From Sminthopsis crassicaudata (taxonomy: Eukaryota): 43,172 nucleotides of DNA. Below are positions 6,617 to 25,600 of this stretch, one piece after another (positions within the stretch are counted from its first letter, which is position 1; every line of letters starts with the position of its first letter). The notes beneath the pieces are model-generated. The model did no database searches and was not told where the DNA came from. It saw nothing but the letters and a program-made list of their open reading frames with translations. The stretch is taken from assembly GCF_048593235.1 (NCBI RefSeq), contig NC_133621.1, positions 38,865,148-38,908,319 on the forward strand, given 5' to 3'. The translations under genes and the position numbers were made by a program.

Positions 6617-6622
6617 GGTCTA
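6617..6622. repeat. Left 6-bp target-site duplication GGTCTA (right copy at 10463-10468)
   Basis: Identical hexamer directly outside both LTR ends; 6-bp TSDs are typical of class II ERV integrases. Confidence 0.93.
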
Positions 6623-7198
6623 TGTAACGTGCTCTCCTGGCAGTTACAATTACTAGTCTGTCCTAGACCCACCAGAGTACCTTTGACCACTGTCCTTTGC
6701 AGTGTGAGCTCTACCCGGCTCGCCTCCTCTGAGGCCTTCTAAGGTCTCTGGCCACAATCTCTTGAATCTATAGCTTAATAACCGGTAGCGCACTCAAGAA
6801 CAACCACGTGTAATCTTAAAAGCCTTTATTATACCTACTCACATAATGCCCTAGCTGATGCCCTGACTTGTTGGTTCCCGAGTGAACACCTGGTCAGAAG
6901 ACCCACGTGTTCACTACCAAAATCCTTACCTCTTTCGGCTACCCATCTTGGCTTGGCCACCCAGGCTAGGAGCCAGGGTGAACAGCACGAGGTTAAAGAG
7001 GGCGGTTGCTGCCTGCAGTGGGCTTACATAGGGCCTGTGAGGTCACACACACAGCCAATCAGCGAGAGAGTCACCCATTACAAAACTATCTCAATATGGC
7101 CAGGATCCCGCCCAAGGGCAGTCCTAATATCCACAGAAATTACTTCCGGGCCTCAATCTCCCGATGCACTGTGTCCGCCCATTTAAAGGGCCCTTACA
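6623..7198 (-). repeat. 3' LTR (576 bp)
   Basis: Differs from the other LTR only at ctaggag vs ctggggag (1 substitution plus 1 indel) and ttccggg vs ttctggg. Adjacent to the PPT. AATAAA on - at 6825-6830. Confidence 0.96.
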
Positions 7199-7199
7199 A

Positions 7200-7217
7200 T
7201 TCCCTTTCTCTTGTTTT
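7200..7217 (-). promoter_or_regulatory. 3' polypurine tract
   Basis: AAAACAAGAGAAAGGGAA on - immediately precedes T and then the TG start of the 3' LTR. Confidence 0.88.
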
Positions 7218-7445: not shown

Positions 7446-7575
7446 ACACTGAGGTGGGAAGTCAACAAGGTAAAACATCACAATTCTAGTTAACAAATAT
7501 CAGTAGGTAGGTTGTCACAATTCTAGTTACATTTATCACAGTTCTAGACCAATTCTAGTTTCTTACAATTTTCTG

Positions 7576-7860
7576 TTGCACTTTTCACACTCCTAGAACA
7601 ATTCTAGCTTATCACAATTCTCAATTGCACTTGTCACAATCCTAGAGCAATTCTAGCTTATCACAATTCTCAATTGCACTTTTCACAATTCTAGAACAAT
7701 TCTAGCTTATCACAATTCTCTATTGCACTTTTCACAATCCTAGAACAATTCTAGCTTATCACAATTCTCTATTGCACTTTTCACAATTCTAGAGCAATTC
7801 TAGCTTATCACAATTCTCTATTGCACTTTTCACAATTCTAGAACAATTCTAGTTTCACAG
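7576..7860. repeat. 49-bp tandem repeat, about 5.7 copies, inside the provirus (degenerate subunits extend back to about 7480)
   Basis: Units start at 7576, 7625, 7674, 7723, 7772 and 7821. Consensus TTGCACTTTTCACAATTCTAGAACAATTCTAGCTTATCACAATTCTCTA. Confidence 0.95.
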
Positions 7861-8081: not shown

Positions 8082-8660
8082 TCAGCTGCAACACTGGAAC
8101 TGTGTCTGGTGTCTCTGGTCACGGTCAGGAGGGGCATTGCTGCCATCAGCGTCTGAAGGGCTGCGGACATCTGGCTGGTCTCTCTGGACTGTTGTCTGGT
8201 CCTTCTCTTGGATCCCCAGGTTACAAATGTCTCTGGTGGGGATGAACTCTACTGCTGGATCTGCACCTAGGAAGGAATGTCCCCGGGGCCCAACTTGGGC
8301 CTTTCCAAATGCCATCCAGGCCTTTCCACATCACAGTGGAAACAAAGTTGTTGTCAAAAAGATTAACAAGTCAGACAAAAGTCAGTCTGTCACTTAGCTG
8401 CACTTTCTGTGTATGCCTGAAGTGCATTGCTAAGGTAAAAGGCAAAGAATTTAAAAATGTAAAACCAAAATAATTTAAAAGTGTAAAACCGAAATAGATT
8501 AAAAATATAAAACCAAAATAACTTTAAAATGTAAAATCAAAAATGTTTAAAAATGTAAAATCAAAATTTAAAAATTGTAAGCAATCACATATCCCAAAAT
8601 TCCCTTCTCTTGTTTAGAAGAGAAGATCTTGGGGATAGTCTGTGCAGTAATGACTTTACT
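8082..8660 (-). pseudogene. Degenerate betaretrovirus-type integrase C-terminal remnant
   Basis: Manual translation gives VMWKGLDGIWKGP (8334-8296; compare MMTV VMWKDLLTGSWKGP). After a frameshift comes PRGHSF...EFIPTRDI (compare HERV-K GRGFACV...WIPTRHL). Weaker KQEKG and LQFLNFD motifs lie upstream. Confidence 0.8.
8443..8580. repeat. 24-bp AT-rich tandem repeat, 5 copies plus a partial copy, inside the integrase remnant
   Basis: Units start at 8443, 8467, 8491, 8515 and 8539; consensus on + is approximately AAAATAATTTAAAAATGTAAAACC. Confidence 0.9.
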
Positions 8661-8746
8661 AGAACACTCGGCTATATCCCTGAATTCTTTTGCCTAAAAA
8701 TCAAAGTTTGAGTTTCTGATACCGAATTGTACTTCAGGAGTGTGAA

Positions 8747-9571
8747 TCAATAAATCTGATATTTTCCTCCTGGGTCAAAGATCACACACTGTCTATTTAT
8801 TCTAGTGATTAAAATAGCAATTTTCCAACCCATTCTAAACATAAACACTGTTTTATAAGTACCCGTAGGGGGTTGGGAAATCAAGCTCACCTGTGGAAGT
8901 GGAAAATCCACGAGGTAAGAAAAGAGGAGTTCCAACTCTCCAAAGACGATCCTAGCAGTTTTACAAGGATAAAACTCCACTCTCTCTAACTGCAAGGTCT
9001 TATCCCTGTAAGGTTTCTTAGAAATTAACTGAACTGTATTTTTAAAACTTTTCTGATTATACTCAATACCCCACAATTCCTTTTTGCCTTGGGGCATAAA
9101 GCCTACTCCTGTCTTTTGAAATGAAGACACAGGAGTTTTGAATGGATTAATGGGCAGTGCTGATGGTATTATCGCCCTTCCTTTTCCTCCTCCCCCTTCT
9201 CCCTTGGCCCAAGAAGGTGAGGCAGAGGGAAGAAGAATTGGAAAATTCCCCAAAGGCTGATTTAAAATCAAATCTGAGCTTTGCACATAAAAAGAACTAA
9301 ACTTCTTCTCAATGGAAGAGTAATGGATAAATTCCTTAAAACAACAATGCAGGAGGTAAACCAACAAAATGCTAAGAAGAATTTCTACAACTTTAGTCCA
9401 TGTGGTTCGTTTATTTCCTTCCTTAGTTTCAGCCACTGGTTTGAACTCTTCCTGTTCTATCTGTATTAACCTAGCTTTTTCTTCTTTCTCTATCTCCATC
9501 TGTAGTTTAACCTGCAATTCCAGCAACTCTTGCTGTGGCATTTTATACTCTATACTGTCATACATACGCAC
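8747..9571 (-). CDS. 274-aa ORF of unknown function in the gag position of the provirus (probably gag-derived, with one predicted membrane helix)
   Basis: Longest ORF in the window. E/K/Q-rich helical N-part, hydrophobic VVEILLSILLVYLLHCCF, and PSAS/PSAL..NPF motifs resembling late domains. No MHR or CCHC motif. The same frame continues upstream to 9799 past one TAG at 9655-9653. Confidence 0.6.
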   Translation of the reverse strand: MRMYDSIEYKMPQQELLELQVKLQMEIEKEEKARLIQIEQEEFKPVAETKEGNKRTTWTKVVEILLSILLVYLLHCCFKEFIHYSSIEKKFSSFYVQSSDLILNQPLGNFPILLPSASPSWAKGEGGGGKGRAIIPSALPINPFKTPVSSFQKTGVGFMPQGKKELWGIEYNQKSFKNTVQLISKKPYRDKTLQLERVEFYPCKTARIVFGELELLFSYLVDFPLPQVSLISQPPTGTYKTVFMFRMGWKIAILITRINRQCVIFDPGGKYQIY

Positions 9572-9865
9572 TAGCTCTAGGTTGCTCCCTCTCCGAGCTA
9601 TATCTAATAGGTGTGGGGATAGCCTTCTCGGAGCTTGATTACAAGCTTCCTGCTATTCTTCAGTGGTGATCTTTGTTAAAAGATCTTCCATCTGGCTCTT
9701 TAACCTCTTGATATAAGCATTATGTTCAGCTGTGTCCTTGAGTCTGATCCCAGATATGGGTCCATATTGCTTCTCTGTCTTCCCTCTTAAGTGGCGTTTC
9801 TACCGGATCTTTCAGAATCTTAATTCTGAATATTAAATACTTTTAAAACCTGATAATTCCTGATG

Positions 9866-9883
9866 CGTCCACGTTGAGCGCCA
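9866..9883 (-). promoter_or_regulatory. Primer-binding site, tRNA-Lys1,2 (CUU)-like
   Basis: TGGCGCTCAACGTGGACG lies 2 nt after the 5' LTR. The canonical Lys1,2 PBS is TGGCGCCCAACGTGGGGC; 14 of the first 15 positions match. Confidence 0.85.
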
Positions 9884-9885
9884 TT

Positions 9886-10462
9886 TGTAACGTGCTCTCC
9901 TGGCAGTTACAATTACTAGTCTGTCCTAGACCCACCAGAGTACCTTTGACCACTGTCCTTTGCAGTGTGAGCTCTACCCGGCTCGCCTCCTCTGAGGCCT
10001 TCTAAGGTCTCTGGCCACAATCTCTTGAATCTATAGCTTAATAACCGGTAGCGCACTCAAGAACAACCACGTGTAATCTTAAAAGCCTTTATTATACCTA
10101 CTCACATAATGCCCTAGCTGATGCCCTGACTTGTTGGTTCCCGAGTGAACACCTGGTCAGAAGACCCACGTGTTCACTACCAAAATCCTTACCTCTTTCG
10201 GCTACCCATCTTGGCTTGGCCACCCAGGCTGGGGAGCCAGGGTGAACAGCACGAGGTTAAAGAGGGCGGTTGCTGCCTGCAGTGGGCTTACATAGGGCCT
10301 GTGAGGTCACACACACAGCCAATCAGCGAGAGAGTCACCCATTACAAAACTATCTCAATATGGCCAGGATCCCGCCCAAGGGCAGTCCTAATATCCACAG
10401 AAATTACTTCTGGGCCTCAATCTCCCGATGCACTGTGTCCGCCCATTTAAAGGGCCCTTACA
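9886..10462 (-). repeat. 5' LTR (577 bp)
   Basis: TGTAAC...CTTACA on +, adjacent to the PBS. On the - strand: two GGGCGG boxes, ATTGG, TATGTAA, donor GAG|GTAAGG, and AATAAA (10088-10093). Confidence 0.96.
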
Positions 10463-10829
10463 GGTCTACAAAAATTATCCACCAAATATGGTGGTGACAT
10501 GCTCAGGGAGAAAAAACACGCCTGGTATGAGGACTTCCTGAGCCTTTTCTGGGCTGGTCATCTGCCTTTAGCATCACCCAATTTTCATCTGTAGCTCCAA
10601 GAAGCCGTAGCATGTGTATCAGCCATAACTTGATAAAACTATATTGGCAGACAGTTTAAACCAGGTTGAGGATAACTGAAAAGCCTAAAATCTCACAATG
10701 AGTTAAGAGGATGTCTGTTCCAAGCTGTGAAGATTTCTCCTGGAGGAATGAACAGATGAGAACAGCTTGTTTCAAAGGCCATGAAAGTGTCTGACACAAG
10801 TGCATAGAGGTGGTCAGACATCAAAGATG

Positions 10830-22695: not shown

Positions 22696-25600
22696 GGAGT
22701 AATTCCAGGAATGGAGCCAAGATGCCAGAATAAAGTCAGGGAGCTGCTCAAGCTCTCCCAGTTTCCTTTGACATCCCAGTTTCCTTCCACATTAAGCCAA
22801 GCCTGTGAGCAAAATCTGATGGAAGGAACCCACTCAAGTTAGACTGAAAAAACTTCAAGAAAGGTCAGTCTCACTGAGATGAAAAGGGTGTCAGGTCACA
22901 TAGACTCTAGGAAAGACTGTGAGAGGGTCTTAATCATAGTAAATCAGCAACTAAGACCCTCATCCTGGCTCAGTAGAGGAACAAATCAATGGTGCAGTTT
23001 CCAGTCCCAGCTCAGAAGACAAACTTTGGGAAACCAGGCTGTTTCCTGAACAGAGCTGGCAAAGCTACCCTCTTTAAACACAAGAGGCTCCTGTGCTCAA
23101 AGCCAAAGCTCAGAGTGGCACAGGAAGCTTGGGATAGTGCCCTCTTTACTCCACGAGTAGAGCTCCTACTTAAAAGTAAAAAGAGATAAATATCAAAAGA
23201 AAAGGAAAGAAAATGAGCAAGAAACAGCAAAAAACAAAACAAACAAACAAACAAACATAAAAACCTTGACCATAGAAGGCCCACAGAATAAATCTCAAAG
23301 AGTGAGATAAATTGGTGTCAACCCCAAAATGGCTTCTTGGAAATGCTCATAAAAGACTTCAAAAGGCAAATAAGAGAGGTAGAAGAAAAAGTGAGAAAAG
23401 AAATGAGAGGTATGCATGAATGAGTCAACATTTTGGAAAAGGAAGGAAAGGAACTGTCTGAAGAAAACAACTACTTAAATAGTAAAATAAACCAAATGGA
23501 AAAAGAGACAAAAAAGATAACTGAAGAAAATCACACATTAAAAACTAGAACAGAGCAAATAGAAGGTAGTGATTTTATGAGATAGCAAGAATCAGTCAAA
23601 AAAAAAAAAGGTAAAAAGAATGAAAAAATTGAAGAAAATGGGAAATACCTCATTGGCAAAACAGCCGACATGGAAAATAGATCCAGAAGAAACAATTTAA
23701 AAGTTATTGGCCTACCTGAAGGCCATGATCAAAAAAGAGCCTAGATAGCATTGTACAAGAATTATTAAGGAAAACTGCCCCAATATTCTAGAAACAGGAG
23801 AGGAAGTACTCATTGAAAGAATCCATTGATCACCTCTGGAAAAAGATCCCACAAGGAAAGTCTCAAGGAACATTGTTGTAAAACTCCAAAACTATAATCT
23901 CAAGAGAAAAAAACTGTAAACTGACCAACAAAAACAATTCAAATATCAAGGAGCAACAATCGGGATTACCCAGGATCTGGCAGGTTCAACAACAAAAGAC
24001 TGGAGAGCCTGGAATAACATTCAGGAAGGCAGAGGACCTGAGGTTATAACCAAGAATTAGCTATTCAGTAAGATTCAGCATCATCAGGGGTCCATTGTGA
24101 ACTAATTGTCCCATCAGCAGGGGTAGCAATTCTGATTCCAGATAAAGCAAAAGTAAAAATAGATCCTATTAAAAGAGATGAGGGGAAGTACATCTTGATA
24201 AAGGGTACAATAAATAATGAAGTAGTGTACCACGTGATAGAGCCTGCAAATTCCTAGAGAAGATTTTAAACCAGGAAGAAATAGACAGCAAAACTATTCT
24301 CATGGGAGGCTTCAATCTTCCCCTCTGAGAATCAGACAACTCTAACCACAAAATAAACAAGAAAGAAACTAGGGATACTAATAGGATCCTGAAAAACTTA
24401 GATATGATAGAACCCTGGAGAAAATTCAATAGGAATGCACCTTTTTCTTGGCAGTACATGGCACTTACCCAAAAACTTACCATGCATTAGGGCATTAAAA
24501 ACTTCACAATAAAATGCAAAAAGTCAGACCACAATGTGATAAAAATTATATTCAATAAATGGCCAGGGAAAGATAGATTAAAAACCAGTTGGAAATTAAA
24601 TAATCTAATTCTAAAGAATGAAGGAGTCAAACAACAAATCACGGAAACAATCCATAATTTCATGCAAGAAAATGACAATAATGAGACAACATACCAAAAC
24701 CTATGGGATGCAACTAAAGCAGTTCTTAGGGGAAATTTTATATTTCTAAATAAAATAAAATAGAGAAAGAGGATATCAATGAATTAGGCATGCAATTAAA
24801 AAGGCTAGAAAAAGCCAACAGAAATTATATGATAATTTCAATGCATGCAGAAAAAGCTTTTGAGAAACAACAGCACCTATTCCTAATAAAAATACTAGAG
24901 AACATAGGGATAAGGGTAGCTTTCCTTAAAATAATAAACAGTATCTATCTAAAACTTATATCAAGCATTATTCGAAATGGAGAAGCTAGACACGTTCTCA
25001 ATAAGATTAGGAGTGAAACAAGGATGCCCATTATTACCACTATTATTCAACATTGTACTGGAAATGTTGGCTTTAGCAATAAGAAAAGAAAAAGAAATTA
25101 AAGTTATTAGAATAGGCAATGAGGAAATAAAACTTTCACTCCTTGCAGATGATATGATGGTATACTTAGAGCAGTTCTCAAACTAGGGCCTCGGGCCAGA
25201 TGCAGGGGGGCAGGGGAGGCTGAGGATTTTATGCAGCAACTGGGTTATGGCAAATGGGCTGAGGGGCGGAGACAGAGTGTGAGCTTTTGTTTTTTGCTAT
25301 AGTTCCACCCTCCCACAGTCTGAGGGACAGTGAACTGGCCCCCTATTTAAAAAGTTTGAGGACCACTGACTTAGAGAATCAAATAAAATTGTCCAAAATC
25401 TCAAAACCTGGAAACAGTTCACAGCTTTAACAAAGTTTCAAGATATAAAATAAATCTACACAAATCATCAGCATTTCTATATATTTCTGACAAAGTCCAT
25501 CAGTAAGAGATAGAAAGAGAAATTACATTTAAAATTTCTGTTAAAAAAAATTAAATTGTTGGGGGTCTACCTGCCAAGATAACTTCAAGAACTATGTGAA

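What the first reader, a model, noticed from the sequence alone, without database searches (positions are those of the whole stretch)
8747..9799. Orphan membrane-protein-like ORF replacing gag in a non-autonomous ERV
Seen: 274 codons are open in AT-rich DNA while all other viral genes in the element are broken. The layout is a coiled-coil-like LLELQVKLQMEIEKEEKARLIQIEQEE, a basic KRTTWTK, an 18-residue hydrophobic helix ending in CC, a Pro/Gly linker with PSAS and PSAL..NPF, and a beta-rich C-domain. There is no MG start, MHR, CCHC knuckle or N-glycosylation sequon. The frame extends upstream past one TAG (9655-9653) through EHNAYIKRLKSQM, which resembles the first helix of MPMV matrix (QHERYVEQLKQAL). 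A strong-Kozak ATG (aatATGg, 9765) about 100 nt after the PBS is one frameshift away, so the ancestral product would be about 340 aa. Inference: a Gag-derived protein that lost capsid and gained a membrane anchor. It could be an accessory, interference or restriction-type factor (Fv1 and glyco-Gag are analogies only). The C-terminal half has only faint echoes of dUTPase (TGVGFMPQG) or protease.
Basis: partly seen in the sequence, partly recalled or inferred. Interest (0 to 1): 0.8.

Follow-up and report, generated by a model that had tools for sequence, protein, structure and literature searches.

The report
Defective retrovirus keeping one chimeric gene
This is one broken copy of a family of about 800 helper-dependent retroviral elements in a marsupial genome whose single patchwork gene stays open in the lineages that keep copying themselves, which suggests each element needs to translate that gene to get its own RNA copied.

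Summary
The ORF is real, but this copy is a damaged member of a young, ~800-copy non-autonomous betaretrovirus-like family. Its frameshift and stop were seen in no other copy; 52 of 59 young copies, sampled without regard to the ORF, encode 335-360 aa. The protein is not wholly orphan. Residues ~177-231 are the gag segment before capsid, and ~247-359 are the dUTPase relic of the pro frame, joined by loss of capsid and nucleocapsid. Only residues 1-176 (helical/coil part plus hydrophobic stretch) have no traceable source. The frame is strongly selected: 11 of 14 inherited indels are in-frame, against 13 of 57 outside (p=2e-4). Amino-acid constraint is modest in codons 1-232 (omega 0.67 by likelihood; not significant by allele counts) and absent in the relic. 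Broken frames are almost never inherited across dispersed copies, so the ORF most likely acts in cis on the element's own RNA, as reported for mouse IAP 1-delta-1. It does not look like an Fv1-type host factor. Membrane insertion, translation and mechanism are inferred, not shown. New variant of a known kind.

The parts
9886..10462 (-). 5' LTR (577 nt, TG...CA)
   Evidence: Local alignment to the 3' LTR: 2 substitutions and 1 indel (repeats D3/D4)
10463..10468 (.). 6-bp target-site duplication; other copy at 6617-6622
   Evidence: Flanks printed
9866..9883 (-). Primer-binding site, tRNA-Lys type (assignment recalled, not from a tool); similar PBS in the gag-pro-pol proviruses of this genome
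9656..9765 (-). ORF codons ~1-38 from the family start ATG (9765; A at -3, G at +4). In this copy it is cut off from the rest by a frameshift near 9757
   Evidence: the break was seen in 0 of 134 other fetched loci, some overlapping
9653..9655 (-). Premature stop of this copy (codon 39)
   Evidence: seen in 0 of 134 other fetched loci
9440..9535 (-). Glu/Gln/Lys/Leu-rich helical, coil-like segment (codons ~79-110); 13 codons longer in many older copies; source unknown
   Evidence: codons 61-121 omega 0.50 against 0.95 and 0.81 in the other frames
9338..9391 (-). Hydrophobic stretch (codons 127-144), candidate signal-anchor; T-rich DNA; source unknown
   Evidence: Hydropathy; composition; omega 0.82, not significant
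9077..9241 (-). Gag relic: Pro/Gly segment before capsid and the first capsid residues (codons ~177-231)
   Evidence: tblastn to gag of same-genome proviruses, best E 9e-5 (L069); 65-67% nucleotide identity over 91-105 nt
8697..9031 (-). Pro-frame dUTPase relic (codons ~247-359). This copy has the short-tail form that leaves the relic near codon 337 and stops at 8747
   Evidence: tblastn 38-40% identity, E 7e-10; 40%, E 7e-12 for the window copy; alignment A2; Pfam dUTPase below cut-off in 7 of 10 members, not in the family member
8435..8580 (-). 24-bp tandem repeat, U-rich in the RNA sense, 170-310 nt after the stop; role unknown
8281..8334 (-). Trace of the integrase C-terminal domain. Older copies keep more protease, RNase H and integrase remains upstream of it
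   Evidence: Weak tblastn, E 0.047; clearer relics in older copies
7508..7859 (-). 49-bp tandem repeat, 7.2 copies, in the 3' untranslated region
   Evidence: folding z -1.6, not significant
7199..7217 (-). Polypurine tract
6623..7198 (-). 3' LTR with AATAAA at 6830, about 1.9 kb after the ORF stop

Best explanation
The window holds one damaged copy of a ~3.8-kb non-autonomous class II (betaretrovirus-like) LTR element. The family has no capsid, nucleocapsid, RT or intact integrase, so it must borrow them from env-less gag-pro-pol proviruses in the same genome. Its one ORF is a deletion fusion: 176 residues of unknown source, then gag pre-capsid, then the dUTPase relic of pro. SHOWN: the frame is kept in lineages that go on copying and is lost only privately. 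INFERRED (about 0.8): selection acts in cis, so an element whose RNA is not translated through this ORF is rarely copied. INFERRED, less firm: two things are selected. The N-terminal two-thirds works as a nascent-chain tether: the hydrophobic stretch anchors ribosome and RNA at a membrane, and the coil may bind itself or helper Gag, favouring packaging of that RNA. The dUTPase relic is only a spacer that keeps the stop codon late, so the unspliced RNA escapes nonsense-mediated decay.
For: Element anatomy. Counts of 816 and 807 exact internal 20-21-mers and 5190 LTR 21-mers. Gag and pro homology in native frames. Frame retention: 52 of 59 young copies encode 335 aa or more. Shared indels in-frame 11 of 14 in codons 1-335 against 13 of 57 outside, Fisher p=1.8e-4. 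Frameshift-length indels per substitution 0.005 against 0.178. Among 25 copies with LTR pairs at least 99.75% alike: 119 variable ORF sites, 0 stop sites against 8 and 7 in the other frames, and all 9 distinct ORF indels in-frame against 4 of 23 non-coding rows. Older copies: in-frame shared indels have 69 carriers against 13. Protein constraint: omega 0.54 (codons 1-121) and 0.73 (122-232) against 0.90-1.03 in shifted frames, and 1.12 in the relic; variants with 5 or more carriers show 34 synonymous against 23 expected in codons 1-232. Co-packaging hint: L093 joins a helper LTR, the family's PBS-to-codon-211 piece and a helper gag-pro-pol. Precedent: the IAP 1-delta-1 fusion acts in cis (passages of PMC6466679 and PMC7411935). 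Premature stops in RSV gag trigger Upf1-dependent decay (PMC2925335 Background).
Against: Counting all shared alleles gives no significant amino-acid constraint (omega about 0.83, 1.0 and 1.4 by region; 0.93 overall). Among the 25 youngest copies whole-ORF omega is 0.93, not different from 1. The 5-carrier threshold was chosen after the fact, and recombination between copies can inflate the tree-based test. The hydrophobic stretch shows no significant constraint, contains Glu and His, and is weaker in older copies. One frameshift near codon 337 is widely inherited (20 of 59 young copies), and I set the codon-335 boundary after seeing it. Both structure predictions failed (pLDDT 33). No run on record as RNA and no ribosome data. 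Where the helper assembles is unknown. L093 is a single copy.
Confidence: 0.5

Rival explanations
1. Translation-only model: the protein is junk. The frame is kept solely because a premature stop destabilises the unspliced RNA (nonsense-mediated decay or a similar ribosome-linked step).
For: Frame and stop depletion are strong while allele-count omega is near 1. The relic is free in sequence yet in frame. Late frameshifts are tolerated. Younger copies have shortened the stretch behind the stop: about 400-700 nt to the integrase motif against 850-1050 nt in the five older copies measured. RSV precedent.
Against: Likelihood omega 0.54-0.73 in codons 1-232, with controls near 1. Strong codon-position bias in the coil. 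The hydrophobic stretch persists in old and young copies.
Confidence: 0.28
2. No selection: the family is young and came from a few source copies that happened to be open.
For: Many LTR pairs are 99-100% alike; all 12 older copies in the genome-order sample are broken.
Against: Copies with near-identical LTRs differ at 119 ORF sites with no stop and only in-frame indels, while their non-coding parts carry many frameshift-length indels. The frame also spans older subfamilies about 8-10% away.
Confidence: 0.07
3. Trans-acting accessory, interference or restriction protein (Fv1-like or glyco-Gag-like).
For: Membrane-protein-like layout; modest constraint in the N-terminal part; RefSeq has predicted models for eight family proteins.
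Against: A protein supplied in trans would let broken copies spread, yet breaks before codon ~335 are almost never inherited. No single domesticated locus was seen among the copies examined. No capsid domain and no glycosylation sequon.
Confidence: 0.08
4. Residues 1-231 are simply the diverged matrix-to-capsid region of an unsampled autonomous parent, and the constraint is left over from a membrane-targeting Gag N-terminus.
For: It sits where matrix sits and has about the same length (about 190 codons to the EGGG motif against about 180 in helper gag). A W-x-x-VG motif in older copies resembles helper matrix (seen by eye).
Against: Matrix profile: no hit in six frames of 12 copies. DNA and protein alignments to 43 gag 5' regions are no better than antisense controls. 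None of 17 extra coil-bearing loci has capsid downstream. No longer homolog in the protein database.
Confidence: 0.3

Closest known systems
Mouse IAP 1-delta-1 (PMC6466679, PMC7411935; passages seen. The primary paper, Saito 2008, was not held)
   Same: Non-autonomous class II element; internal deletion makes one in-frame fusion ORF; needs a helper in trans; the fusion is reported to help its own element in cis.
   Different: 1-delta-1 is a gag-pol fusion of an otherwise ordinary IAP. This family fuses gag pre-capsid to the pro dUTPase relic, has 176 residues of unknown source with a hydrophobic stretch, has its own LTR and is only ~60-70% identical to the helpers in shared parts. Cis action here is inferred from copy variation, not assayed.
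MEBrv 3 env-less betaretrovirus-like ERVs of dasyurids (PMC11334065; passages and section 10 seen)
   Same: Likely helper and nearest relative. Intact gag-pro-pol proviruses with near-identical LTRs and no env ORF occur in this genome (2589 exact matches of an RT 21-mer) and share the dUTPase relic and PBS type.
   Different: That these loci are MEBrv 3 is inferred from the description (they are 6.3-6.9 kb, the paper says ~7.3 kb), not from sequence comparison. The paper's main text has no hit for non-autonomous, dUTPase or accessory; its supplements were not read.
ETn/MusD, recKoRV/KoRV, bovine ERVK D/C types (PMC10924933; passages and section 20 seen)
   Same: Defective elements trans-complemented by competent ones, recombining in shared particles.
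   Different: The bovine D type lacks intact viral ORFs; none is described in what I read as keeping a novel selected ORF.
Betaretroviral dUTPase (PMC4531489; passages seen)
   Same: Position at the 5' end of pro; collinear weak profile match to FIV dUTPase (E=1).
   Different: Already degenerate in the helpers (Pfam below cut-off), no Pfam hit in the family, omega about 1.1: a relic, not an enzyme.
Fv1 and glyco-Gag (features recalled, no call)
   Same: Gag-related origin; glyco-Gag has a membrane anchor.
   Different: Fv1 is a single capsid-derived host gene; glyco-Gag is a glycosylated extension of a complete Gag. This family is multicopy, mobile, has no capsid and has no sequon.

Membership tests
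Non-autonomous class II (beta-like) ERV | Paired TG...CA LTRs, PBS, polypurine tract, 6-bp target duplication | tested here: met
   (Lys-type PBS assignment recalled)
Non-autonomous class II (beta-like) ERV | Beta-type gag/pro/pol relics, no intact capsid, RT or integrase | tested here: met
Non-autonomous class II (beta-like) ERV | Mobilised by a helper in trans | tested here: inconclusive
   Intact candidate helpers exist; one recombinant (L093) and one older copy with a helper-like 5' LTR (L133); no direct test
IAP 1-delta-1-type cis-acting fusion ORF | Single in-frame ORF made by internal deletion | tested here: met
   Gag frame joined to pro frame between codons ~231 and ~247
IAP 1-delta-1-type cis-acting fusion ORF | Gag-pol fusion within the IAP family | tested here: not met
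   The fusion partner is pro, and the host is a marsupial; it works like 1-delta-1 but is not a member
IAP 1-delta-1-type cis-acting fusion ORF | ORF needed in cis for retrotransposition | not testable with these tools
   Supported indirectly by the lack of inherited frame breaks
Retroviral Gag | Matrix domain (Pfam Gag_p10, MG start) | tested here: not met
Retroviral Gag | Capsid and zinc knuckles | tested here: not met
   only the first capsid residues align
dUTPase | Pfam dUTPase above cut-off, five motifs, purifying selection | tested here: not met
   No Pfam hit in the family member; omega 1.12; fold prediction uninformative
Fv1-type domesticated restriction gene | Single fixed host locus derived from capsid | tested here: not met
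   About 800 LTR-flanked copies, no capsid; orthologous loci in other species could not be searched
Glyco-Gag | Glycosylated N-terminal extension in frame with a full Gag | tested here: not met
   No sequon in a 360-aa copy; no full Gag
Single-pass membrane protein | A true transmembrane helix | tested here: inconclusive
   Kyte-Doolittle peak 2.1-2.25 in young copies, 1.5-2.0 in older ones; no topology predictor available; no charge asymmetry across the stretch

The most novel reading that the evidence does not exclude
A retroviral parasite has evolved its own new membrane protein, an orphan coil plus signal-anchor grafted on gag and pro scraps, that tethers its RNA co-translationally at the helper's assembly site and wins packaging in cis. 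It would be a purpose-built accessory gene of a non-autonomous ERV, with about 800 natural alleles to study.
Probability: 0.3. Interest if true: 0.78.

Novelty: new variant of a known kind. Interest (0 to 1): 0.5.

Why it matters
Non-autonomous ERVs are usually treated as non-coding passengers. The cis effect of an in-frame fusion ORF is reported from one mouse family, IAP 1-delta-1. This looks like an independent case in a marsupial, visible in natural variation: strong selection on the frame, a gradient of protein constraint, and an orphan N-terminal part. The mix of intact and broken endogenous copies makes it possible to test, by observation alone, whether translation or the protein itself favours copying. 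The family also appears to be a recently active mutagen (about 5,200 LTR matches) that gene-based ERV surveys would tend to miss.

Tried and rejected
Homolog searches found only same-family proteins: near lengths, 1 cluster of 2476 candidates; 1.84 billion representatives, 1 hit; longer, 0 of 1674; shorter, 0 of 174; viral contigs, none; ESM Atlas, two blanks; PDB by sequence, nothing under E 1.7. Pfam gave only a sub-threshold herpes UL73 match on the hydrophobic stretch. AlphaFold on shallow alignments failed twice, so no fold search was run. Matrix origin of codons 1-176: not supported. Out-of-frame or inverted gag origin of the hydrophobic stretch: no hit in tblastx or six-frame alignments. 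LINE-1 origin: weak blastn hits (E 0.002-0.005) and a protein match reached by 6 of 500 shuffles vanished with LINE-1 ORF1 and ORF2 DNA profiles (best E 3.5 and 0.91); rejected. Parent with capsid: 0 of 17 coil-bearing loci. Uncorrected Nei-Gojobori dN/dS (0.57-0.65) equalled its frame-shifted controls and was discarded. The stop at codon 244 in 8 of 22 older copies covering it is a recurrent hotspot, not a lineage. Rfam: three chance-level matches. Expression: no RNA holder listed; contigs of four small runs, three guessed to be RNA, cover the element and hardly its flanks, which is not evidence of transcription. Earlier findings of the scan: nothing returned. Literature: no description of this family; three primary papers were not held.

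Full report
OBSERVATION. The minus-strand frame 9652-8750 is open for 301 codons, 272 from its first ATG and 274 from a GTG just upstream. An open stretch of this length is far beyond chance at this composition (about 3e-9). It lies in a 3.84-kb element, 10462-6623, with LTRs that differ by two substitutions and one indel, a 6-bp target duplication, a Lys-type primer site (assignment recalled) and a polypurine tract.

A HIGH-COPY FAMILY. A DNA search of the own genome gave 1229 candidates; the 40 scored were 97-100% identical. Exact short motifs count 816 (integrase relic), 807 (coil) and 5190 (LTR). All 29 other top-hit copies have one open frame of 340-360 aa from the same ATG. Top hits are biased, so I took the first 83 places in genome order, skipped 3 tandem duplicates and fetched 80. 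Nine lacked the ORF region in the stretch fetched and were dropped, leaving 71: 59 young (at least 95% to reference copy L115) and 12 older (90-94%). Of the 59 young copies, 32 encode 354 aa or more, 20 encode 335-347 aa and 7 are shorter. All 12 older ones are broken. The window copy's two breaks were found in 0 of 134 other loci, some overlapping. The only database homologs are eight predicted RefSeq proteins of the fat-tailed dunnart, about 91-96% identical except one truncated form at 86%.

WHAT THE ORF IS MADE OF. The genome holds intact env-less gag-pro-pol proviruses of two types, which fit the description of MEBrv 3 in PMC11334065 (section 10 read; identity inferred). Against these, residues ~177-231 align with the Pro/Gly segment before capsid and the first capsid residues (best E 9e-5). 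Residues 257-334 align with the 5' part of pro at 38-40% identity, E 7e-10, and the long form follows that frame to residue 359. That part of pro is where betaretroviruses encode dUTPase (PMC4531489 passages). Pfam dUTPase appears below cut-off in 7 of 10 aligned members, not in the family member, and the best PDB profile hits are FIV dUTPase, collinear but at E=1. So capsid and nucleocapsid were deleted in frame and gag was joined to a dead dUTPase. Older copies keep more protease, RNase H and integrase scraps downstream. Residues 1-176 have no source that I could find: not matrix, not shifted or inverted gag, not LINE-1, and nothing in the protein libraries. None of 17 further coil-bearing loci has capsid behind it.

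SELECTION ON THE FRAME. In codons 1-335, 11 of 14 indels shared by two or more copies are in-frame, against 13 of 57 in non-coding internal sequence and LTR (p=1.8e-4); private ones are 16 of 41 against 16 of 92 (70 copies, the partly deleted L178 left out). I placed the boundary at codon 335 after seeing the one common frameshift near codon 337, which yields the 340-aa and 359-aa forms. Frameshift-length indels per substitution are 0.005 in the ORF and 0.178 outside; minor stop alleles have 4 young carriers in frame against 56 and 152 in the other frames. The cleanest set is 25 copies with LTR pairs at least 99.75% alike, whose differences must mostly have passed through successful copying: 119 variable sites, no stop (8 and 7 sites in the other frames) and nine distinct indels, all in-frame. 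Among older copies, in-frame shared indels have 69 carriers against 13, and a stop seen in 8 of 22 is a recurrent hotspot, not a lineage.

SELECTION ON THE PROTEIN. This is weaker and depends on method. A codon model on 67 copies with a fixed tree gives omega 0.54 for codons 1-121, 0.73 for 122-232 and 1.12 for 233-335; shifted-frame controls are 0.90-1.03 for the first two regions and 0.72-0.78 for the third. Counting shared alleles in 88 copies gives about 0.83, 1.0 and 1.4, none significant. Only variants with five or more carriers show a synonymous excess in codons 1-232 (34 against 23; threshold chosen afterwards). Among the 25 youngest copies the whole ORF has omega 0.93. For scale, helper pol gives 0.17-0.26 and helper gag 0.41 between types, but 0.51 and 1.11 among a few young copies. 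The hydrophobic stretch peaks at 2.1-2.25 in young copies and 1.5-2.0 in older ones, without significant constraint.

HOW IT MOST LIKELY WORKS. A protein acting in trans, or a host restriction factor, would let broken copies spread. They almost never do, so the benefit goes to the RNA that is being translated. This is the behaviour reported for mouse IAP 1-delta-1, whose deletion-made gag-pol fusion helps its own element in cis while Gag and Pol come from full-length copies (passages of PMC6466679 and PMC7411935; the primary paper was not held). I put cis selection at about 0.8. For the mechanism I favour two layers, at about 0.5 jointly. The N-terminal part is a nascent-chain tether that holds ribosome and RNA at a membrane near helper Gag. 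The relic keeps the stop late on an RNA with a ~1.9-kb 3' UTR, as premature stops in RSV gag cause Upf1-dependent decay (PMC2925335 Background). The main rival is translation alone with a junk product (about 0.28). Locus L093, a helper LTR followed by the family's primer site to codon 211 and then a helper gag-pro-pol, is what template switching in a shared particle would leave, but it is a single copy. Translation, membrane insertion and helper use are all inferred. Both folds failed and no run is on record as RNA.

NOVELTY AND VERDICT. Searches for this family in print found nothing; the dasyurid ERV survey's main text has no hit for non-autonomous, dUTPase or accessory, and its supplements were not read. 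Dfam and Repbase could not be checked. The element type and the cis-acting fusion principle are known. The gag-pro(dUTPase) architecture with a 176-residue orphan front end, its persistence across subfamilies, and the evidence from natural variation appear new. Observation confirmed, interpretation partly supported, new variant of a known kind, interest 0.5.

Noticed in passing
L093 (G000:C4:159872600-159882599): Single-copy recombinant: helper-type LTRs around the family's PBS-to-codon-211 piece followed by an open helper gag-pro-pol.
   Followed up: partly
L095-L098, L110: One type of intact env-less provirus has gag and pro in a single 795-797-codon frame, while the other type (L091, L092, L109) keeps separate 617-618 and 292-codon frames.
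   Followed up: no
L109:3519-3920 and relatives: The dUTPase region of the helper proviruses is itself degenerate (Pfam below cut-off) yet shows omega about 0.5 among helpers.
   Followed up: partly
G000, (e.g. C1:60369516, C5:493280): Another young beta-like ERV group with identical matrix scores and open frames of about 730-740 codons (some 858-999); not examined.
   Followed up: no
window 7508-7859; L109:6922-7267: Both the family (49-bp unit) and the helper (56-bp unit) carry unrelated tandem arrays in the 3' untranslated region at a similar place; possible export or stability elements.
   Followed up: partly
window 8435-8580: U-rich 24-bp tandem repeat shortly after the stop; deletions in younger subfamilies removed protease, RNase H and integrase scraps between the stop and this region.
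   Followed up: partly
G000:C1:12870413-12880749 and C1:75478310-75483961: Head-to-tail tandem arrays of the element sharing LTRs (spacing about 3.23 kb).
   Followed up: no
L133:1-293: Older family copy whose 5' LTR is helper-like (69-78% to helper LTRs) rather than family-like.
   Followed up: partly
window 23250-24400: Decayed LINE-1 ORF1 and start of ORF2 on the plus strand.
   Followed up: partly
one search runs X13, X16: Near-identical family sequence occurs in runs labelled as two other organisms (B and C), so the family may be shared with close relatives.
   Followed up: no
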